From positions 44,743 to 108,742 of IMG/VR virus record IMGVR_UViG_3300010356_000998: a stretch of DNA of 64,000 nt. One strand, given 5' to 3'. Position numbers and translations under genes: made by a program. Positions 5,596-19,015 of this stretch are shown here, one piece after another. The DNA comes from a virus. Its lineage: Duplodnaviria; Caudoviricetes. Under the pieces are notes generated by a model. The model saw only the letters and a program-made list of their open reading frames with translations, ran no database searches and was not told the origin of the DNA. Within the stretch, counting starts at the first letter, position 1; each line of letters begins with the position of its first letter.

Positions 5596-5698
5596 ATTAA
5601 AAATTGATTACTTCAACAGATAACTTACATTTAATTTTAGCCTTCTTTGAATTCATCCGATTTTCGATACACATTACTGTGTAAAGGCACAAGTTTTT

Positions 5699-6665
5699 AT
5701 GCTGTGAGTAGTATATTTTTGAATAATAGATTGAATAAATACTCTATTTTGCCAGTTAATATCATTAGCTATTGAACCATACCAAGGAGACATTTTAAAA
5801 CGTGCTTCTAATTCAGACTTTGGCATCATTTCTATAGAATACGATAATGGATCTGGAGCAGTTTTATTAATTTGAATTTGAAGCCAATCTTTAAATTTAG
5901 GATGAAGTACAGGATATTCCATCCAGTTATCTCCATTTTGATCTGTAAAATCTACTCTAACACCTGTTTCACCCGGATTAACTTTTTTACGACGCATGTA
6001 ATATGGTGCAAATAAAGGTTCTAATCCAGAAGTTGTTTGTGTTAAAATACTTACAGAACCAGTTGGAGCTACTGTAGACCATGATACATTACGACGTCCC
6101 CATTTTATCATTTTTAAAACTTTAAAATAAAAGTTTTCTACTAAAAATTGATAAAATTCATTACGTCCACTAATAATATCACCATCTATTTTAAATTCAC
6201 TTTCAGCATCCCAATCTTTAAATGAACCCCTTAATATAGATAAATCAATACTACAATCTAGTTCTCCTGACATTTTAGTTTGCATCACTCTTTCAATAGT
6301 TTCCATAGCTTCTTTAGAATCATATTTTAATCCTAAAGCTGCTAACATATCACCTAAAGCAGTGAAACCACTACCCGTTCTTCTAGAACTTTCAGCAATA
6401 TATCTTATATTTTGCCAAAGTTCTAATTCAGTACGTTTAACTGAATCATTTTCAGGATCTTGATTGATTTTATCGATAATTCTATCAATGTGTTCTAATT
6501 CAAGATCAATTAAATTATCAGCTAATCGTTGTTGTTCATACGCCATTTTATAAAGACTTTCGTAATCTATTTGAGCATCTTTAGTAAATGGGTTCTTTAC
6601 AAAGGAATAAAAATTAAGTGCTAATAAACGACAAGCATCATAAGCACTCATGAAAATTTCTCCAC
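5699..6665 (-). CDS. nrdJ: class II ribonucleotide reductase, exon 2
   Basis: (C)GEIFMSAYDACRL, RRTGSG, RRNVSWSTVAPTGSVS, TSGLEP motifs. Confidence 0.92.
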
Positions 6666-6673
6666 CTTTTTAT

Positions 6674-7405
6674 CTACACTTTATTAATCATGTTTTTAAA
6701 TTCATTATAATAATCTTTTTCTGTCCACAATTCATTCTTTTTAATTTTTTTAATGTTAGTACCATTATAATAAAAAATACCTTCTTGTGCAGGATACGAA
6801 CAAATACACCTTATTGAAGAATTGTTAATACGACTTTTAAATTCTTCAACTGTAATTAATTTAGGAAAGGTATCAATTGCAGTTTTTCCATAGTAATTAT
6901 TCAAAAAACAATGATTAACATTTACTTTTTCAATATCTAACATTAAATTATGACAAAATAAAAATACTTGTAAAGAATCTTCGTTTTTAAATAAATCTTT
7001 TTCTATTAATTCTAAAAATAAATTGTATACATCAAAATATGAATCATCAGAGTTATCATTAGTATGTTTAGGACTTACAAAATAACCTTCATAAGCAAAT
7101 CTAATAAACATACCTAATAAAGTTAATTCAATAATTTTTGAATCGTTTTTTACATGTACTTCTATTCTTTCACAATCTTTATTATCAATAATTTCAGTTA
7201 TACAATCTATGAAATTAGATTTAATAATATTTAAATATTTCATAAATTTATCATAATTTTCTATTTTAACATATTCTATTATAATTGCTACAGGATCTGC
7301 AGAAGGAACAGTATAATCATGAGCAAACGAATGAAAACAAGCTTCGTTGGTATGTGTGTTAATTTCGCCTTTTACTTTTTTAATAAAACTTGAATTGTAT
7401 GACAT
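6674..7405 (-). CDS. intron-encoded hypothetical protein in the P9 loop, no endonuclease motif seen
   Basis: 243 aa from ATG 7405 (alternative start 7456 overlaps the S element); no HNH, GIY-YIG or LAGLIDADG motif recognised. Confidence 0.75.
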   Translation of the reverse strand: MSYNSSFIKKVKGEINTHTNEACFHSFAHDYTVPSADPVAIIIEYVKIENYDKFMKYLNIIKSNFIDCITEIIDNKDCERIEVHVKNDSKIIELTLLGMFIRFAYEGYFVSPKHTNDNSDDSYFDVYNLFLELIEKDLFKNEDSLQVFLFCHNLMLDIEKVNVNHCFLNNYYGKTAIDTFPKLITVEEFKSRINNSSIRCICSYPAQEGIFYYNGTNIKKIKKNELWTEKDYYNEFKNMINKV

Positions 7406-7442
7406 AATAACATGATTTGAGTTATTTGTAGTTTGGACTGTA

Positions 7443-7811
7443 TCATAAACTTGCATTAAGTTTTTCCTTGTCAGTCTCTCGCGGCTTATTGATTAAATTG
7501 TCTATGATTTCTTTTAAGATAGCTTTTTCGTCAATGTTAAAGCTATTAGTTAATGTAAGTATTCTATTTAGTTTATTTAACAATTTATATTCAATCTGTC
7601 CGACGGGATTGACCTCTCCAGGTGTTTCCCCGTTAGCCTTATTCAGACCCTCAATTTTTTGAGATTCGGAATTTTTGTTAAATGGATTATCTTGATATAC
7701 AATATTTTCAAGTTTCGTAAGTCTATCATAAAGTTCTTGTATTTGTTTTTGAAAGAGTTTTTCATTTCTGTCAATTCTTTCAAATTGTTTAATATTAAAT
7801 TGTTGACTCAT
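7443..7811 (-). CDS. ORF overprinting the intron 1 catalytic core (helical/coiled-coil-like)
   Basis: 122 aa open frame spanning the P, Q and R elements and ending in S; coding status unproven. Confidence 0.5.
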   Translation of the reverse strand: MSQQFNIKQFERIDRNEKLFQKQIQELYDRLTKLENIVYQDNPFNKNSESQKIEGLNKANGETPGEVNPVGQIEYKLLNKLNRILTLTNSFNIDEKAILKEIIDNLINKPRETDKEKLNASL

Positions 7812-7864
7812 AATCTATTTAACTTTCCATAAGTATCACTACTTACAGCCGCATGGTATGTTTT

Positions 7865-8744
7865 ACGGATTTGTGGTTACCCCTTTGTATTTTGGATAAA
7901 CTGTATCAGGAGAATAATCCCAGTGTCTATCTACAAATAATATTCCGGGTTCTGCTGTACTATGTGCAGCTTCTATCATCTTATCCCAAAGTTCTCGTGC
8001 TTTTATTTCTTTAGTAATAGATGGATTATCTGAATCGCAAGGCCATCTCAATGTATAATTTGTATTTTGTTTAACAGCTTGCATAAAGTCATCTCTTACC
8101 ATTACTGAAATATTAGCTCCAGTTACTTTAGTTAGATCTTTTTTAATAGTTATAAAATGTTCAACATCAGGATGTCGAACGTCTATGCTTAACATTAAAG
8201 CACCTCTACGGCCATTTTGTGCTACTTCTCTTGTACTATTAGAAAATCTCTCCATAAAACTAACTGCTCCTGTAGAAGTACCAGCAGCATTAGTTACAGG
8301 TGTATTATTTGGTCTCAATGTAGAAATATCAAGACCTACACCACCTCTTCTTTTCATTAACTGAACTAATTGCTCGTCTTTTTGAAGAATACCTCCATAA
8401 GAATCTTCAGGTTGCCCTACCACAAAACAGTTACTTAAAGATCCTATTTTTTTAGAACCTAGCATTGACATTATAGATCCTTGTGGTACAACATACTTAA
8501 AGTGTTTAAACAAATCATAAATACGTTCTTCTGAAAGATATTCTCTTTCTTGTCCATATTTACTTAATTCTGTTCTGTTTTCGGAGTTTTCTTCTTTTTC
8601 TTTGTAATTAGATTCAATTCTAGCAAATTCTTTTGCCATTCTTTTGTGCATGTCATCGGGAGTCGTTTCTCCTTCTTGAGCATACTTTCCTTGCCATACT
8701 GACATGGCTAATTCATCTTGATTAAAGTAATTGGATAATGACAT
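7865..8744 (-). CDS. nrdJ: class II ribonucleotide reductase, exon 1
   Basis: SLSNCFV, RRGGVG, QNGRRGALM, ANISV, EPGILF, TTNP; exons total 880+967+658=2505 nt (834 aa plus stop). Confidence 0.92.
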
Positions 8745-14414: not shown

Positions 14415-14487
14415 TGGGCCCAGCAGGACTTGAACCTACAACCCTCAAATTATGAGTTTGGCGCTCTACCGATTGAGCTATGGGCCC
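14415..14487 (-). tRNA. tRNA-CAU, probably Ile2 (lysidine-modified)
   Basis: GGGCCCA/TGGGCCC acceptor stem, CTCATAA loop; body resembles bacterial Ile2 more than Met. Confidence 0.8.
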
Positions 14488-14530
14488 GGTGTTTTAATAC
14501 ACACTTTTAATTGTAATATAATATTTTTGA

Positions 14531-14628
14531 TGACACTAGCAGGAATTTAACCTACCACAACCGCAGAAGAACTAGTATTACGTTGGTTCGCCCACATACA
14601 AATGTAGTGTTCAGGAACATGTAGTGTC
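14531..14628 (-). ncRNA. tRNA-like RNA (acceptor stem and T-arm, non-canonical body)
   Basis: GACACTA/TAGTGTC stem plus discriminator A; GTAGG TTAAATT CCTGC T-arm; no normal D or anticodon arm. Confidence 0.55.
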
Positions 14629-14634
14629 GAGTTT

Positions 14635-14904
14635 TTAATTATAGATAGATTGTAATAATCTACCTAAAATGTGTTTGTTTTTTGGATTCCATCCGTTGAT
14701 TACTCTCATGGTGGAATCAACATATAAATTCGATAATCCACGATGTATTACATGTGGCTTACTTGAATTCATAATGTTATCTATTTGTTGAGTATTTAAT
14801 TCAGGTATTTCAAATTGTACATCAGCAAATGATTTATAAGCCTGTGTACAATCTTCATAATCTGAAATAAATAATTGCGGATGCTGTTCTGGTGATATTA
14901 TCAT
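14635..14904 (-). CDS. hypothetical protein
   Basis: 89 aa ORF with ATGA overlap to the upstream gene. Confidence 0.55.
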   Translation of the reverse strand: MIISPEQHPQLFISDYEDCTQAYKSFADVQFEIPELNTQQIDNIMNSSKPHVIHRGLSNLYVDSTMRVINGWNPKNKHILGRLLQSIYN

Positions 14905-15323
14905 GATGTTACATATTTAACAGCGTTAATGTAATCGTTTTTTAAAGGACTACCTGCATAATATTTCTTAATTCTTTTTATTACTTCTGCAGGATATTCT
15001 CCATGTATACCACTACCATTACATATCCATACTTTTCCTTTATAACCGTAAATGGTTCTTTCTTTATAACCCAAATGTCTAGATACTTTAATTTTGGGTA
15101 CATATACAATTTGGTTATAATTATAAATAATAAGACTAACTAAAACTATAAATACTGGAAAAGCAATTAATGTTTTGAAAAATTCTACTTCTATTGGATA
15201 AGTTTTCTTTTCCGAATTTAATAAAGAAATTGCTGACTCTAAATCTAATGCTAAATTATAATTTAAATAATTGTTAATTAAATTTAGCATAATTAAAATC
15301 ATTAAAAGAATTAAAAGTTCCAT
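14901..15323 (-). CDS. membrane hypothetical protein
   Basis: Two hydrophobic segments; start moved to ATG 15323 because the upstream extension lies in a structured RNA. Confidence 0.55.
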   Translation of the reverse strand: MELLILLMILIMLNLINNYLNYNLALDLESAISLLNSEKKTYPIEVEFFKTLIAFPVFIVLVSLIIYNYNQIVYVPKIKVSRHLGYKERTIYGYKGKVWICNGSGIHGEYPAEVIKRIKKYYAGSPLKNDYINAVKYVTS

Positions 15324-15348
15324 AATTAAATATTTAAGAATGATAAAA

Positions 15349-15477
15349 ATCAAAGAAGAAAAATGATAAAACTGTCTTTGTTGCATACGGGGCTCGAACC
15401 CGTAATTCAAAATCCGAAATTTTTGCGATCAACCAATTGATCTAATGCGAAGTAAGTTTTATCTAACTATCTTTGAT
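15349..15477 (-). ncRNA. Y RNA-like (YrlA-type architecture): long terminal helix capped by a tRNA-like domain
   Basis: ATCAAAGA/TCTTTGAT and GATAAAACT/AGTTTTATC helices enclose a D-arm (GATC/GATC), an anticodon-like arm and a T-arm (ACGGG TTCGAGC CCCGT); lies near the TROVE gene. Confidence 0.7.
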
Positions 15478-15554
15478 TGGTGGCGGGTACGGGACTTGAA
15501 CCCGTGATCTCCAGGTTATGAGCCTGGCGAGATACCAACTTCTACCAACCCGCT
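15478..15554 (-). tRNA. tRNA-Met(CAU), initiator-like, CCA encoded
   Basis: A1:C72 mismatch, CTCATAA loop, ACCA 3' end. Confidence 0.85.
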
Positions 15555-15569
15555 ATTTGTTTCTTCAAA

Positions 15570-15749
15570 TCACTTAATAAGTATGATTATCGCTAATACC
15601 ATCAAACTTGATACGACAGCAACCGTTGAAGTTATCCGTTCATATTTAGGGTGTGGTGTATCTTCAAGATACCTGTAAGTTAGGTTAAGTGCAGTTGCAG
15701 TAAAGGCAACTCCGAACAAAAACATCTCTATACAAAGTATCCAATTCAT
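15570..15749 (-). CDS. small membrane protein (two TM segments)
   Basis: Two hydrophobic helices; start moved to ATG 15749. Confidence 0.5.
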   Translation of the reverse strand: MNWILCIEMFLFGVAFTATALNLTYRYLEDTPHPKYERITSTVAVVSSLMVLAIIILIK

Positions 15750-15980
15750 TTCAAAAAGGGAGTCTTGATCCCTATGCACCCGCATTAGAGGAGTTCACTC
15801 GCTGGTTAATTCCAGATGTGCATCTTAACTCCATCTATCAACAGTTTTACGGTCAAGACTCTTTTTTTACCTGGTCGCCTTTCGACTTAGAGGACTTTGC
15901 CCAGAGTTTTATGGTGAGGTGTCTTTCGACAAGGATGCCATCGTTTTAGCAACCCAACTCCCAGGGACTATAACCATCGG

Positions 15981-16104
15981 TGGGGGAGGCTAGAATCGAA
16001 CTAGCGACAGTCAGCTTTGCAGGCTGATACTCTACCGATGAAACTCTTAAATAACTACCTTTCGGAGAAAATTTAAAGAGTTGTTGTAACTGAGTTACTC
16101 CCCC
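15981..16104 (-). tRNA. tRNA with GCA (Cys) anticodon and a 51-nt D-loop insertion
   Basis: GGGGGAG/CTCCCCC acceptor, ACTC/GAGT D-stem, TCAGC CTGCAAA GCTGA anticodon arm, GCTAG TTCGATT CTAGC T-arm; insert at 16037-16087. Confidence 0.8.
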
Positions 16105-16186
16105 ATTAGTTTTAAAACACTATCCCTGCATACGCACATCCGGGATCAGACGTAGACCAACGCCGTATGTTATAGTGTTTTGTATT

Positions 16187-16540
16187 TTAGGCTACTTGAA
16201 AAGTATTTTGTTTCTTAGCACCTCTTGTGCGTCTTCGATAATTGTGATTCATCTTGAGAATATCACACAATTCTCGACACTTGGTAACAAAGAAATCATT
16301 TCGATCTCTTATGGGTAATCCCTCACTGTCAAATTTCCATTGTGGATCAACCATAGCTTTACCGGCCGCTTTTGTACGACCTGTTTTGCGACAAAATTGA
16401 TCTGCTCCATGACAATAAGACATACCAATTCGAAGTTCGTCGTTAACGAAGATGCCGGCAAATGATGCACGGCTTTTGTACAAACGTTTTTTTCCGCGCT
16501 GTTCGGGCGGATTAACGTGAAAAAACATTAGCTTTTCCAT
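16187..16540 (-). CDS. hypothetical phage protein
   Basis: GMSYCHGADQFCRKTGR motif; start moved out of tRNA-Trp. Confidence 0.6.
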   Translation of the reverse strand: MEKLMFFHVNPPEQRGKKRLYKSRASFAGIFVNDELRIGMSYCHGADQFCRKTGRTKAAGKAMVDPQWKFDSEGLPIRDRNDFFVTKCRELCDILKMNHNYRRRTRGAKKQNTFQVA

Positions 16541-16570
16541 AAATTTGTTTTTAAGTGAAAAAATATTTAG

Positions 16571-16643
16571 CGAATGCGGCAGGATTCGAACCTGCAACCT
16601 TTGGTTTTGGAGACCAATACTCTACCAATTGAGCTACGCAAAC
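16571..16643 (-). tRNA. tRNA-Trp(CCA)
   Basis: TTGGT CTCCAAA ACCAA anticodon arm, G73; two U-U mismatches in the acceptor stem. Confidence 0.82.
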
Positions 16644-16732
16644 GTTTTATTTAAGATAGCCGCCCAGGACAAGTAAACTGAATTACGATCGGTGTTCCTG
16701 CTTCCTTCAGCTATACGGCTAACTTAAATTTG

Positions 16733-16807
16733 ACCTGCTAGAGAGGGCTTGAACTCCTCAACTACTTACTTATAAGGCATATACTTTACCAGTTGAACTA
16801 TATCCGC
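16733..16807 (-). pseudogene. degenerate tRNA-like sequence (UAU loop)
   Basis: GCGGATA TAGTTCAACTGGTA...CTTATAA...GTTCAAG pattern with broken stems. Confidence 0.45.
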
Positions 16808-16939
16808 CAATAGAGGTTTATCATCCTTTGATGACTTAATGGTTGTCACTGCCATTTTTCAGGTATTCTTAAGTAACCCTGTTCCATTTTCCTCTATTGA
16901 CGGAACGACTAGACTCGAATTAAATTACGCAAGCGTTTT

Positions 16940-17128
16940 TTAAGATAATTCTTTATATTTTTCAATTATTCTTATATAGAATAGAATACCACATAAAGCA
17001 TATAAGAATTCTTTTTTTGTTAAATTAGTACCATACTCATCAAGTAAATCATCTATTGACATACCTAAATTTACCAACCATTGTGATACATGAATAATTA
17101 ATAAAAATATTATAAAAAATGTTATCAT
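16940..17128 (-). CDS. small membrane protein
   Basis: Hydrophobic ORF from ATG 17128. Confidence 0.5.
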   Translation of the reverse strand: MITFFIIFLLIIHVSQWLVNLGMSIDDLLDEYGTNLTKKEFLYALCGILFYIRIIEKYKELS

Positions 17129-17140
17129 AATCGAAAAGTT

Positions 17141-17207
17141 AACGGGTAAATGGGGAGAGTTATGTTGTGACACCAAAAAGTCGAAGTAACTCTCCCCTAA
17201 CCACGTT
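17141..17207 (-). ncRNA. minimal Y RNA-like module
   Basis: AACG TGGTTA GGGGAGAGT TACTTC GAC..GTC ACAACATA ACTCTCCCC ATTTACC CGTT; same loops as 15349-15477. Confidence 0.65.
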
Positions 17208-17222
17208 TATATTTTAAAGAAT

Positions 17223-17375
17223 TTACTGTTTGCTAGGTGATGCTATTGTTAAACCTGTGCAAAATGATAATAGTAGCATGAAAATATAAAAATATTCATC
17301 ACTACTACACATTGTAACAATAACACCAATTACTGTAATAACAGTAAATAACAAAGCTTTTTGTTTATATGTCAT
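17223..17375 (-). CDS. small two-TM protein coupled to the TROVE gene (50 aa, not in ORF track)
   Basis: ATGA overlap with the TROVE stop; MTYKQKALLFTVITVIGVIV... Confidence 0.5.
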   Translation of the reverse strand: MTYKQKALLFTVITVIGVIVTMCSSDEYFYIFMLLLSFCTGLTIASPSKQ

Positions 17376-19015
17376 ACAAATTCAATTGATTTAACTGTTT
17401 GAATTATTTCATTTGGATTGAATTCCACATGTTTGATTTGTTCAAACACATGATTTCCATATCCATAGATATAATGTACTTTTGGCCCAACTAATTGAGT
17501 TGTGCCGTAGGCTGCTAAATCAACTGAATACACGTAAGGTCTTCCACACTTTTCTATATAATCCTGATATGCTTTGTAAGTATTACCTACATTACATTCA
17601 TGATCAGAGAAAATGAATACACGATCGTACTTTTTAGTAGAAGCGAGTTTCCAAGCTTCTGCTAAATTAGTTGAGCCCATTTCAGATTTAAATCCAGAAG
17701 CAATTGTAAACACATCATCACTGATTTTATAGTTTACATAATTTGCTTTAGACCCAAATCTAATAATATCCGCATTTGTAGCTTTAGCGATAGTAGCTGC
17801 TAACAAACACGCTTTATCACCAGCGTATGATTTGTAAGTAACTGCATTATTTCGATTGCCGTTCTTTACATAACCATTTAGCATCCACATTGAACCAGAC
17901 TGATCAACAATAACAAGAGTATTACCTGTAAGCAATTCAGCGAAGTTTGGAATACTTTGCTTATAACCTACTGTTAATTCTTGTACAATTCTTCTTGATT
18001 CAGGAGAATTGAATTCATTGTTAATTACTTCAATAGCAATGTCGAAATGATATGGCATTATTTTACCTTGTATAACCTTGTTAGGGTCAGATACAAGAGC
18101 ACATAACATATTTACAGTATCTCTTGTCGGATTTGACAAAAGAATACTACGGATATTGCGCAGTGCTGCCATAATACCAAGACGACCTTCTGACAGCAAC
18201 TGATTCCAGTTTTGCTCTTTAGCTTCTTGTAGAAGTTGTTGAGCTTCTTGCTGGTTAATATTACCTTCACGTACAGCACGAGCAATTTCTTGCCCAGCTT
18301 CACTCTGAGCATTCTCCCATGTATGAGCAGGAATGTTATTTCCTCTCATAATATAGTCAAGTGCTGCAACACTATGTGCTTTTTCTAATGATATTTCTGG
18401 TGTTTTCCAAGGATTAGGATGCACCATATTAGCAACATCACGAATTTGTTTCGTGTATTTGCCAAAATTATACAAATCCAATCCTTCAATCGTCATAGCA
18501 AATCCTTTCTTCATGGAAGCAGGCAGGGATTTGTTATTATTCAATTTATAATATGCCATAATTTCAGACATATCGTCAGTTCTGAAAATAACACCGCCTT
18601 TCTTAGTTTTTTTATTCCAAGCAGAATAAAAATACTTTGCCCATGGTTGACCAGAAATGTATGGAGCAATTGTTACTGCAGCTACATGAGATACAGAACG
18701 TAGACCTTCTCCCAAACAGCGAGAATAAACAATACATTGTGCTGTGAAATATGGATTTTCTTTAGCACATTCGATAACAACAGCTTTCAAATTACGAATC
18801 TGTTGAGATTCTGATTTATAATACTGTTGTTCTAGTTTTAGCGTATTAAGCATAGAAAGTAGTTTTAACCACTTATCCATATTATACGCTGGTGAGCCAC
18901 TGATATTAGTAGCTTTTGGTGGTGCTGCTGTTTGTTTCTTTTTATGTGAAACAAATGAAGCAGTTTGATTCTTACCATCCAACTTTTTTTTGAGTTCGGA
19001 GTTAAATTTTGACAT
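17372..19015 (-). CDS. TROVE-domain / vWA RNA-binding protein (Ro60/Rsr-like)
   Basis: N-terminal TNISGSPAY, HTWE, MAALRNIRSI motifs of TROVE; vWA MIDAS VDQSGSM, GSTN, IFSDHE; C-terminal SVDLAAYG. Confidence 0.85.
   Translation of the reverse strand: MSKFNSELKKKLDGKNQTASFVSHKKKQTAAPPKATNISGSPAYNMDKWLKLLSMLNTLKLEQQYYKSESQQIRNLKAVVIECAKENPYFTAQCIVYSRCLGEGLRSVSHVAAVTIAPYISGQPWAKYFYSAWNKKTKKGGVIFRTDDMSEIMAYYKLNNNKSLPASMKKGFAMTIEGLDLYNFGKYTKQIRDVANMVHPNPWKTPEISLEKAHSVAALDYIMRGNNIPAHTWENAQSEAGQEIARAVREGNINQQEAQQLLQEAKEQNWNQLLSEGRLGIMAALRNIRSILLSNPTRDTVNMLCALVSDPNKVIQGKIMPYHFDIAIEVINNEFNSPESRRIVQELTVGYKQSIPNFAELLTGNTLVIVDQSGSMWMLNGYVKNGNRNNAVTYKSYAGDKACLLAATIAKATNADIIRFGSKANYVNYKISDDVFTIASGFKSEMGSTNLAEAWKLASTKKYDRVFIFSDHECNVGNTYKAYQDYIEKCGRPYVYSVDLAAYGTTQLVGPKVHYIYGYGNHVFEQIKHVEFNPNEIIQTVKSIEFV

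What the first reader, a model, noticed from the sequence alone, without database searches (positions are those of the whole stretch)
14531..19015. Candidate phage Ro60/TROVE system with one RNA module used in three architectures
Seen in sequence: a TROVE+vWA gene lies inside the tRNA cluster. Downstream of it, the same RNA module occurs three times: 5' TRGTTA, a 9-10 bp helix, TACTTC, a payload, a CAA-containing linker, the return strand, then ATTT(T/A)CY. The copies are at 17141-17207, 15349-15477 and, permuted, 16037-16087. Helix sequences differ but stay complementary (GGGGAGAGT/ACTCTCCCC, GATAAAACT/AGTTTTATC, TTAAGAGTT/AACTCTTTAA) while the loops are conserved, which is the signature of a protein-binding RNA motif. 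Established: bacterial Ro60 (Rsr) binds Y RNAs that are encoded next to it and often mimic tRNA (YrlA). Inference: this module is a portable Ro-binding handle attached to different payloads (none, a tRNA mimic, a full tRNA). It could recruit Ro to protect, repair or decoy tRNAs against host anticodon nucleases.
Basis: partly seen in the sequence, partly recalled or inferred. Interest (0 to 1): 0.93.

Follow-up and report, generated by a model that had tools for sequence, protein, structure and literature searches.

The report
Phage Ro60 with three handle-tagged RNAs
A crAss-like phage encodes its own Ro60 RNA-binding ring protein followed by three small RNAs built on one conserved two-helix "handle"; the same handle sits beside Ro60 genes in many other phages, including the cultured gut phage crAss001, so it is most likely an uncatalogued form of the Ro60 partner (Y) RNA.

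Summary
On the minus strand, within 2 kb downstream of a Ro60/TROVE-vWA gene (17372-19015), lie three RNAs with one module. Its order is P1 helix, bulged U, RG/CY 2-bp step, asymmetric loop (5' UUA / 3' AUUUN), variable 8-9 bp P2, then UUACUUCG and an A/C-rich return strand. Copy A (17208-17140) has almost no payload. Copy B (15474-15352) carries a defective tRNA-Arg-like body. Copy C (16087-16037) is circularly permuted, GAAA-capped and inserted in the D-loop of a tRNA(GCA).

The module is a family. There are 103 unique copies in IMG/VR phage contigs with strong P1/P2 covariation. All copies on Ro60-holding loci share the Ro60 strand (71 of 71; 75 of 75 covariance-model hits). Of 55 unbiased module loci, 39 lie on Ro60-bearing contigs, against 0 of 60 chance matches. 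A sample of 120 pattern matches in cellular genomes held no convincing copy.

crAss001 shows minimal and permuted forms right after its TROVE gene. Rfam YrlA reaches only 29-38 bits on relatives, and the canonical GNCGAA motif is absent.

Ro60 binding is inferred, not shown, and the function is unknown. Other windows of this scan have noted the same theme on other DNA. I class it as a new variant of the Ro60/Y-RNA kind.

The parts
17372..19015 (-). Ro60/TROVE + vWA protein gene (547 aa, ATG at 19015)
   Evidence: Pfam TROVE 23.2 bits against cut-off 23. PHROG 850 'RNA-binding protein' E 5e-35. A profile of 12 homologues hits phage phiLo Ro60 9KOP (E 2.4e-6) and X. laevis Ro60 1YVP (E 1.3e-5). 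The AF2 model's top 13 Foldseek hits are all Ro60 structures. The MIDAS-like D371-x-S373-G-S375 is invariant.
17140..17208 (-). RNA A: minimal handle RNA. P1 17208-17204/17144-17140; bulged U 17203; GG/CC 17202-17201/17146-17145; UUA 17200-17198; P2 17197-17189/17160-17152; UACUUCG 17188-17182; 21-nt payload
   Evidence: Fold -27.8 kcal/mol, z -4.97. It aligns column for column with 10 relatives from other phages. CM R1 scores it 63 bits, but it is a training member.
16037..16087 (-). RNA C handle: circularly permuted module. P2' 16080-16073; AUUUU; CU 16067-16066; P1 capped CC-GAAA-GG 16065-16058; U 16057; AG; UUA; P2 16051-16044; UUUCAUC
   Evidence: Descriptor hit. Deleting this stretch leaves a perfect tRNA-Cys(GCA) by ARAGORN. 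GNRA-capped permuted copies occur in L002, L010, L021 and crAss001.
15979..16104 (-). RNA C host: tRNA(GCA)-shaped RNA with acceptor GGGGGAG/CUCCCCC, A73 and CC, and the handle in its D-loop between U17 and G18
   Evidence: Rfam tRNA 33.4 bits over model positions 6-65. Fold. ARAGORN after deletion of the insert. The same acceptor stem plus ACCA is found in L002, L010 and L021 RNAs.
15352..15474 (-). RNA B: handle carrying a normal-order, defective tRNA-Arg(UCG)-like body (15451-15379). P1 extends to 15476/15350
   Evidence: CM R1 44.5 bits, E 5e-7, full length, and not in the training set. tRNA 39.2 bits. ARAGORN cloverleaf shows 2 acceptor mismatches and a 3-bp D stem. 73.5% identity to a handle RNA in L015.
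15478..15554 (-). tRNA-Met(CAU) abutting RNA B (context)
   Evidence: ARAGORN and Rfam.
16570..16643 (-). tRNA-Trp(CCA) between RNA A and RNA C (context)
   Evidence: ARAGORN and Rfam.

Best explanation
The region is a phage Ro60 ribonucleoprotein locus. The phage is a distant crAss-like phage, probably of a Bacteroidota host. It makes a Ro60 (TROVE+vWA) ring protein and, from the same strand just downstream, three small RNAs that share a conserved handle.

The handle runs in this order: outer helix P1, bulged U, 2-bp RG/CY step, asymmetric internal loop (5' UUA here, YAA in most relatives; 3' U-rich), a sequence-variable helix P2, and a conserved junction (UUACUUCG on the 5' side, an A/C-rich strand on the 3' side).

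I infer that the handle is the docking site for the phage Ro60. That would make it the counterpart of the Y-RNA stem, and the payload would set what the particle does or recruits.

- RNA A is a bare handle.
- RNA B displays an unchargeable tRNA-Arg-like mimic.
- In RNA C the handle is turned inside out, sealed with a GAAA tetraloop and planted in the D-loop of a tRNA(GCA). This leaves a free acceptor end with CC.

Shown: the gene is a Ro60 homologue; the module is a real, covarying RNA family; and it is tied by position and strand to Ro60 genes in many phages. Inferred: that Ro60 binds it, and any downstream role. By analogy with Rsr-Y RNA-PNPase particles, such a role could be tethering host tRNA-binding enzymes or nucleases early in infection.
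For: Protein identity
- TROVE and Ro60 matches by sequence and by fold.

Family and covariation
- 103 unique full modules: bulged U in 101 of 103, AG/CU in 99 of 103, UACUUC fixed, P1 and P2 variable.
- An RNA's own 3' partner is found for 116 of 239 anchors, against about 11 when helices are swapped between copies.
- On an 11-sequence alignment, 96% of cells are paired, 13 of 16 pairs carry compensatory changes, and the covariation score is 0.805 against 0.244 in shuffles (0 of 500 reach it) and 0.20 or less when slid.

Linkage to Ro60
- 71 of 71 unique modules are on the TROVE strand, at a median of 832 nt from the gene. All 75 CM hits in 35 TROVE loci are on that strand.
- An unbiased IMG/VR pattern scan gave 55 real modules. 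30 have TROVE in the held flank and 9 more have it elsewhere on the contig. None of 60 pattern-only matches has it.
- Partner Ro60s range from 25 to 54% identity to this one, so the link spans deep divergence.

Kinship with Y RNAs
- Relatives give full-length sub-threshold YrlA hits of 29-38 bits, E down to 2.8e-5.
- Some payloads are T arm, sealed acceptor, D arm, as in YrlA.
- UUAC after P2 matches the conserved YUAY of YrlA. The 5' strand of the loop is the conserved one, as in known Ro60-Y RNA contacts (PMC4201824).

Cultured relative
- crAss001 has a minimal handle RNA 99 nt after its TROVE gene, followed by two tRNA-like RNAs with permuted handles.
Against: - No binding or expression data exist for this phage.
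- The canonical Ro60-site motif GNCGAAN0-1G (PMC4201824) is absent from the handle.
- No window copy reaches any Rfam Y-RNA model.
- The only YrlA 'hit' in the window is a chimera of two neighbouring RNAs.
- Co-occurrence cannot separate Ro60 from another factor that travels with it.
- About 14 module loci sit on contigs with no TROVE found. All are fragments estimated at 2-39% complete, except one doubtful hit at 67%.
Confidence: 0.65

Rival explanations
1. The handle is a structural or processing element that does not depend on Ro60. It could be an end-protecting clamp or a recognition site for another factor, phage or host (for example RNase P, Z or E, or an unidentified small phage protein). 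Such a factor would release or stabilise small RNAs from the tRNA-array transcript. On this reading Ro60 is linked only because both belong to the same conserved RNA-gene cassette.
For: The handle lacks the published Ro60 motif GNCGAA. A second conserved block, UUACUUCG plus an A-rich strand, has no counterpart in the described Ro60 site and could serve another partner. The copies lie inside tRNA operons, where processing signals are expected.
Against: The link to TROVE holds across crAss-like phages of about 100 kb and jumbo phages of 170-320 kb, with Ro60s only 25-54% identical. Modules cluster within a few hundred nt of the TROVE gene. In the permuted copies the handle is internal and GNRA-sealed, so it cannot act as an end clamp or a leader-trailer duplex.
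Confidence: 0.2
2. The handle RNAs are ordinary tRNA precursors. P1 and P2 would be a leader-trailer duplex that is cut away to give working tRNAs (Arg-UCG from B, Cys-GCA from C after removal of an intron-like insert).
For: B and C score as tRNA (39 and 33 bits). C becomes a perfect tRNA-Cys when the insert is deleted. C keeps a free acceptor end with A73-CC.
Against: Copy A and many relatives have no tRNA body at all. B has a bulged or mismatched acceptor stem and an irregular anticodon arm. In relatives the 'acceptor' 5' strand is the invariant UACUUCG whatever the anticodon, and it runs on into further hairpins rather than to a CCA end. Many payloads are sealed, permuted tRNAs. No bacterial D-loop intron splicing pathway is known (general knowledge). 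The insert is a conserved, covarying module rather than an intron-like sequence.
Confidence: 0.07
3. The three copies are a chance resemblance or a recent local duplication with no function.
For: The genome is AT-rich, and loose versions of the descriptor give about 13 chance hits per window.
Against: The helices differ completely between copies yet stay paired. B is found by a model trained without it at E 5e-7. The module recurs with covariation in dozens of unrelated phage contigs.
Confidence: 0.01

Closest known systems
YrlA-type bacterial and phage Y RNAs bound by Rsr/Ro60 (Rfam RF02553; Chen et al. 2014, PMC4201824; structure preprint 10.1101/312249)
   Same: Encoded next to a Ro60 gene. 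The 5' and 3' ends pair into a long stem broken by an asymmetric internal loop, whose 5' strand is the conserved one. A YUAY element (UUAC here) follows the middle helix. Payloads mimic tRNA, and some relatives have the exact order of T arm, sealed acceptor, D arm. There are several different RNAs per locus.
   Different: No GNCGAAN0-1G motif; instead U-bulge/RG/UUA (YAA in relatives) plus an invariant UUACUUCG. Rfam YrlA gives nothing on the window copies and only 29-38 bits (gathering score 69) on relatives. Payloads are far more varied: none, a normal-order tRNA body, a complete permuted tRNA with anticodon arm, or RNAs of 160-300 nt. The handle also occurs circularly permuted inside a CCA-ending tRNA-shaped RNA. 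In a sample of 120 pattern matches from cellular genomes no convincing copy was seen.
Thermus phage phiLo Ro60 with Yrl1/Yrl2 (PMC12135203; PDB 9KOP, 9L5Y)
   Same: A phage-encoded Ro60 with two or more small partner RNAs encoded beside it. It is the best structural match of the window protein (Foldseek E 2e-13). It offers a precedent for a phage Ro60-RNA particle that engages host PNPase in vitro.
   Different: phiLo Yrls were picked by a CGAA-bearing bulge and lie upstream of the gene. The window RNAs lack CGAA in the handle, lie downstream, and include tRNA-shaped payloads. Protein identity is only about 17%.
Metazoan Y RNAs with Ro60 (X. laevis Ro-Y RNA structure 1YVP)
   Same: A bulged helix formed by the RNA ends serves as the protein platform, and a variable loop or payload region engages effectors.
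   Different: There is no sequence similarity to the GGUCCGA helix. The payloads are tRNA mimics, and the setting is a phage tRNA operon.

Membership tests
Ro60 / TROVE protein family | TROVE domain detectable by profile | tested here: met
   Pfam PF05731 23.2 bits against cut-off 23. PHROG 850 E 5e-35. A 12-sequence profile hits Ro60 chains 9KOP and 1YVP.
Ro60 / TROVE protein family | Helical-repeat body plus C-terminal vWA domain with MIDAS (DxSxS) | tested here: met
   AF2 model has mean pLDDT 73.8. The top 13 Foldseek PDB hits are all Ro60, E 2e-13 to 2e-9, TM 0.37-0.61. D371, S373 and S375 are invariant. Ring closure was not assessed because the model's domain packing is only moderate.
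Ro60 / TROVE protein family | Binds Y RNA or misfolded RNA | not testable with these tools
   Needs EMSA or RIP.
YrlA (Rfam RF02553) | Covariance-model score at or above the gathering score of 69 bits | tested here: not met
   No hit on A, B or C at E up to 5. The only window hit (26.5 bits, 14429-14585) is a chimera of two RNAs. Relatives score 29-38 bits.
YrlA (Rfam RF02553) | GNCGAAN0-1G motif near the 5' end (proposed Ro60 site, PMC4201824) | tested here: not met
   The 5' strand reads ..G-U-RG-UUA.. in the window and U-AG-YAA in 83 of 103 relatives.
YrlA (Rfam RF02553) | 5' and 3' ends form a long stem with internal loops, followed by YUAY | tested here: met
   Folds, covariation, and UUAC after P2 in A and B. 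C has UUUC.
YrlA (Rfam RF02553) | Permuted tRNA-like domain (T arm, sealed acceptor, D arm) | tested here: not met
   Window copies: A has none, B is a normal-order tRNA body, and C is a handle inside a tRNA. The feature is met in relatives L036 3731-3871 and L017 3851-3983.
YrlA (Rfam RF02553) | Encoded adjacent to a Ro60 gene | tested here: met
   A, C and B lie 164, 1268 and 1898 nt downstream of the gene on the same strand.
Phage 'U-AG-YAA ... UUACUUCG' handle RNA family (defined here; not in Rfam) | Match to covariance model R1 built from relatives | tested here: met
   B scores 44.5 bits, E 5e-7, full length, and was not in the training set. A scores 63 bits but was in the training set. 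C is permuted and cannot match a linear model; it aligns by hand with three other permuted copies.
Phage 'U-AG-YAA ... UUACUUCG' handle RNA family (defined here; not in Rfam) | Same strand as, and close to, a TROVE gene | tested here: met
   Window copies. Family: 71 of 71 on the same strand, median 832 nt from the gene.
Canonical tRNA (for RNAs B and C) | Uninterrupted cloverleaf with free, paired acceptor ends | tested here: inconclusive
   C is a perfect tRNA-Cys only after removing the 51-nt D-loop insert; ARAGORN finds nothing in the intact sequence. B's acceptor strands run on into the handle and are mismatched.

The most novel reading that the evidence does not exclude
The handle is a transplantable Ro60 docking tag that phages graft onto tRNA-shaped RNAs at different points. 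RNA C and its relatives, including two in crAss001, would then be chargeable or CCA-bearing tRNAs that carry a Ro60 ring on their elbow. The set of handle RNAs with fast-changing anticodon loops would work early in infection as Ro60-tethered decoys, shields or sensors against host tRNA-targeting defences. That would be a new role for Ro60/Y-RNA particles.
Probability: 0.12. Interest if true: 0.88.

Novelty: new variant of a known kind. Interest (0 to 1): 0.68.

Why it matters
What bacterial and phage Ro60-Y RNA particles do is still largely open. This locus belongs to a large, phage-borne and apparently uncatalogued branch of that system.

- Its RNA handle differs from the published Ro60 site.
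- Each locus carries up to six handle RNAs in the sequence held.
- The payloads run from nothing to complete tRNAs.
- In the permuted form the handle sits inside a tRNA that keeps a free acceptor end.

A shared handle across such different payloads gives a clean experimental lever. Handle mutants and payload swaps can be tested directly. Because crAss001, a cultured gut phage whose TROVE gene is expressed early, has the same set-up, RIP-seq, EMSA and knock-outs are feasible now. The family would also merit an Rfam entry, and it explains many 'odd tRNA' and 'pseudo-tRNA' calls in phage annotations.

Tried and rejected
- Rfam at gathering and at permissive thresholds gave no Y RNA on A, B or C. 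The 26.5-bit YrlA hit at 14429-14585 joins the T arm of a tRNA-like RNA to the D arm of tRNA-Met and was rejected as an artefact.
- The single-protein locus search and blastn against GenBank phages found only tRNA matches or nothing.
The nearest Ro60 relatives (P0002-P0012, 55-63% identity, contigs of about 108 kb) could therefore not be examined.
The link appeared only when the search was anchored on UACUUCG.
- The exact pattern of the permuted loop gave 0 hits in IMG/VR.
- The unconstrained permuted scan was mostly noise. Requiring a paired cap gave the real cases.
- CM search with filters off scored B only locally (16 bits). Default settings gave the full-length hit.
- The other intergenic RNAs of the region have no detectable sequence relatives in the fetched loci.
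- ARAGORN with the intron option gave only spurious calls.
- The GTDB genome scan found no convincing module in its first 120 matches.
- Literature searches found no description of this handle.

Full report
**Setting**

The window is bases 44743-108742 of a 108.7-kb IMG/VR virus record estimated 99% complete. Its large terminase is closest (31% identity) to that of Cellulophaga phage phi14:2 and next to gut crAss-like phages. I therefore read it as a distant crAss-like phage, probably of a Bacteroidota host.

Between about 12 and 20 kb all genes run on the minus strand. ARAGORN and Rfam find tRNA-Leu, Tyr, Arg(UCU), Met, Met, Trp and Thr, plus a weak 'tRNA-Arg(UCG)' and a partial tRNA at 15987-16047. 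A replication module (DNA polymerase, ribonucleotide reductase) lies next to the cluster.

**The protein**

ORF 17372-19015(-) encodes 547 aa.

- It just passes Pfam TROVE (23.2 bits, cut-off 23) and matches PHROG 850 'RNA-binding protein' at E 5e-35.
- It has more than 1,700 homologues, several of them named 60 kDa SS-A/Ro by their sources.
- A profile of the 12 closest hits the Thermus phage phiLo Ro60 (9KOP, E 2.4e-6) and Xenopus Ro60 (1YVP, E 1.3e-5).
- An AlphaFold2 model (pLDDT 73.8) finds only Ro60 structures in its top 13 Foldseek matches, at E 2e-13 to 2e-9.
- The vWA MIDAS-like DxSxS (D371, S373, S375) is invariant.

It is a Ro60 homologue.

**The observation**

Folding refines the anatomy. 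An outer helix P1 is followed by a bulged U, a 2-bp step (GG/CC in A; AG/CU in B and C) and an internal loop (5' UUA; 3' AUUUA, AUUUUU or AUUUU). Next comes a helix P2 of 8-9 bp whose sequence differs completely between copies. After P2 comes UUACUUCG in A and B, or UUUCAUC in C. The return strand is preceded by an A/C-rich stretch (ACAACAUA, ACAAAGAC, ACAACAA).

- Copy A (17208-17140) carries only 21 nt.
- Copy B (15474-15352) carries a normal-order tRNA-like body. Its acceptor strands run on into the handle, its acceptor stem is mismatched or bulged, and its anticodon arm is irregular.
- Copy C is the same module circularly permuted. The open end of P1 is sealed by CC-GAAA-GG, and the P2 end opens into the D-loop of a tRNA(GCA). 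Deleting 16087-16037 leaves a flawless tRNA-Cys by ARAGORN, whereas the intact sequence is not called.

A strict descriptor finds only these three sites in the whole genome.

**Is it more than chance? The comparative test**

An IMG/VR scan anchored on the 5' half of A and B then returned 59 stretches. Only six of them had the full module, and all six lay on four contigs already in my Ro60 list.

Looking closer, the heptamer TACTTCG occurs 144 times on the Ro60 strand of those 47 loci and 32 times on the other strand. 136 of the 144 are outside tRNAs, and nearly all are preceded by [GA]TAG[TC]AA plus 9 nt. The window's UAGUUA/UGGUUA is thus a minority variant of a widespread U-AG-YAA handle.

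A second, unbiased IMG/VR scan (TAGYAA-N7-GTTACTTCG) gave 115 new loci.

- 55 have a complete module, meaning their own P2 partner, CY step and P1 partner.
- 30 of these have a Ro60 gene in the held flank, and 9 more have one elsewhere on the contig.
- The remainder lie on fragments estimated at 2-39% complete, plus one doubtful hit on a contig 67% complete.
- None of the 60 pattern-only matches has a Ro60 gene.

Only 3 of these were loose 'modules', and none had a Ro60 gene in the held 8 kb. Within that sample the family looks phage-borne.

**Covariation**

Across 103 unique modules the bulged U (101 of 103), AG/CU (99 of 103), the loop's final A and UACUUC are fixed, although the last three were search criteria. 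P1 and P2 vary freely.

Each 5' strand finds its own partner downstream in 116 of 239 anchors. When the helices are swapped between copies, only about 11 find a partner.

On a MAFFT alignment of window A with 10 short relatives (A4):

- 96% of cells pair;
- 13 of 16 pairs show changes on both sides;
- the covariation score is 0.805, against 0.244 for shuffles (0 of 500 reach it) and 0.20 or less for slid partners.

The sequences were chosen partly by pairing, so the swap control is the fairer test.

A covariance model from A4 (R1) finds B, which it never saw, at 44.5 bits, E 5e-7, full length. It also finds 75 hits at E 0.01 or better in 35 Ro60 loci, every one on the Ro60 strand. All 71 unique descriptor modules on Ro60-holding loci are co-oriented with the gene, at a median of 832 nt from it.

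**Architectures**

Payload lengths cluster at about 21-49, 64-119 and 160-308 nt. The classes are:

- bare handles like A;
- normal-order tRNA bodies whose 'acceptor' 5' strand is the invariant UACUUCG, with anticodons that differ between related loci and include UUA and UCA;
- D-arm-first bodies like B (73.5% identical to one in L015);
- YrlA-like permuted tRNAs (T arm, sealed acceptor, D arm), some with a full anticodon arm (L036, L017);
- larger RNAs.

Permuted, GNRA-capped handles like C occur in L002, L010 and L021. There they sit inside RNAs with the same GGGGGAG...CUCCCCC-ACCA ends as C, but with reduced tRNA bodies.

**A cultured relative**

In Bacteroides phage crAss001, R1 finds a minimal handle RNA 99 nt after the TROVE gene gp96 (39 bits, E 2.7e-6). 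The next 600 nt hold two tRNA-shaped RNAs with permuted handles, so crAss001 has both the minimal and the permuted forms seen in the window. cr111_1 also has a hit. [quoted passage not shown]

**Relation to known Y RNAs**

Chen et al. 2014 (PMC4201824) described YrlA RNAs beside Ro60 in more than 250 bacteria and phages. These have a 5' GNCGAAN0-1G motif proposed as the Ro60 site, a conserved YUAY, and a permuted tRNA-like domain. They note that Ro60 contacts mainly the 5' strand.

The handle here shares the overall stem-loop-stem plan, the 5'-strand bias of conservation, YUAY (UUAC) and, in some relatives, the tRNA-like domain. Rfam YrlA gives full-length but sub-threshold hits on relatives (29-38 bits).

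It lacks GNCGAA, however. No window copy matches any Rfam Y-RNA model, and the one YrlA 'hit' in the window is a chimera. I found no paper describing this handle. I therefore treat it as a new variant of the Ro60/Y-RNA kind and not as a member of Rfam YrlA.

**Mechanism**

Shown: a Ro60 homologue, and a covarying, modular RNA family tightly linked to Ro60 genes in position and orientation across deep divergence.

Inferred (about 0.65): Ro60 docks on the P1-bulge-loop-P2 region, and payloads determine partners. This follows the analogy with Rsr-Y RNA-PNPase and with the phiLo Ro60-Yrl-PNPase complexes (PMC12135203).

The main rival (about 0.2) is that another factor reads the handle, or that it is a stabilising or processing element. 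The sealed, internal permuted copies argue against a simple end clamp or leader-trailer role. The tRNA-precursor reading (about 0.07) fails on copy A, on the sealed permuted payloads, and on the invariant 'acceptor' strand paired with varied anticodons. The decoy or shield idea against anticodon nucleases is untested.

**Earlier notes of this scan**

Look-ups made after my own analysis show that other windows of this scan have reported the same theme on other DNA: handle-tagged tRNA mimics beside Ro60-like genes, and a handle in a tRNA D-loop that is also present in crAss001. My results agree with them. I verified the crAss001 claim directly.

**Limits**

There are no expression or binding data. 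CM E-values are rough.

Noticed in passing
window 14531-14637 (-): A 107-nt tRNA-like RNA with a 7-bp acceptor stem (GACACUA/UAGUGUC) and a T arm (GUAGG-UUAAAUU-CCUGC), but an aberrant interior of about 60 nt. Neither ARAGORN nor Rfam tRNA calls it. Its T arm, joined to the D arm of the neighbouring tRNA-Met, produces a spurious 26.5-bit YrlA hit. It has no handle module.
   Followed up: partly
window 15786-15980, 16104-16186 and 16644-16939 (-): Three further non-coding stretches, relatively GC-rich, with strong local structure. They include a 10-bp closed hairpin at 16181-16114, GNRA-capped hairpins at 15930-15880, and a 14-bp stem topped by three small hairpins at 16905-16800 next to a degenerate tRNA-like sequence. 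They have no Rfam match and no sequence relatives in the fetched loci.
   Followed up: partly
window 5674-8744 (-): The ribonucleotide reductase large subunit is split into two ORFs (7863-8744 and 5674-6651). These match consecutive parts of the PHROG 84 profile. Two unassigned ORFs (7443-7811 and 6674-7456) lie between them. This may be an intron, an intein or a homing-endonuclease insertion.
   Followed up: no
L021 494-854 and 1541-1963: A 197-kb phage contig with a related Ro60 gene also carries a tmRNA (72.5 bits) and a full-length GOLLD RNA (256 bits) in the same tRNA array.
   Followed up: no
L003 4016, L004 7712, L005 7705, L008 7930, L017 3702, L018 5492, L024 5117 and others: This class of handle RNA carries a normal-order tRNA body. 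Its acceptor 5' strand is the invariant UACUUC(G/U), and it is followed by a GNRA hairpin. Anticodons differ between otherwise near-identical loci (UUA, UCA, UUU, UAA, UUG, AUC, GAU, GAA...), including two stop-codon-reading ones.
   Followed up: partly
L343 (crAss001, MH675552.1) 5810-6716: The unannotated 900-nt gap after TROVE gene gp96 holds at least one minimal handle RNA (5909-5988) and two tRNA-shaped RNAs with permuted handles (~6086-6230, ~6340-6480). The record annotates none of them.
   Followed up: partly
L033, L034, L035, L045, L048 (contigs of about 95-100 kb): These phage contigs are similar in size to the window's genome. They mix UUA-type and UAA-type handles in one locus, with up to six copies. 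The UUA variant is therefore not lineage-exclusive.
   Followed up: partly
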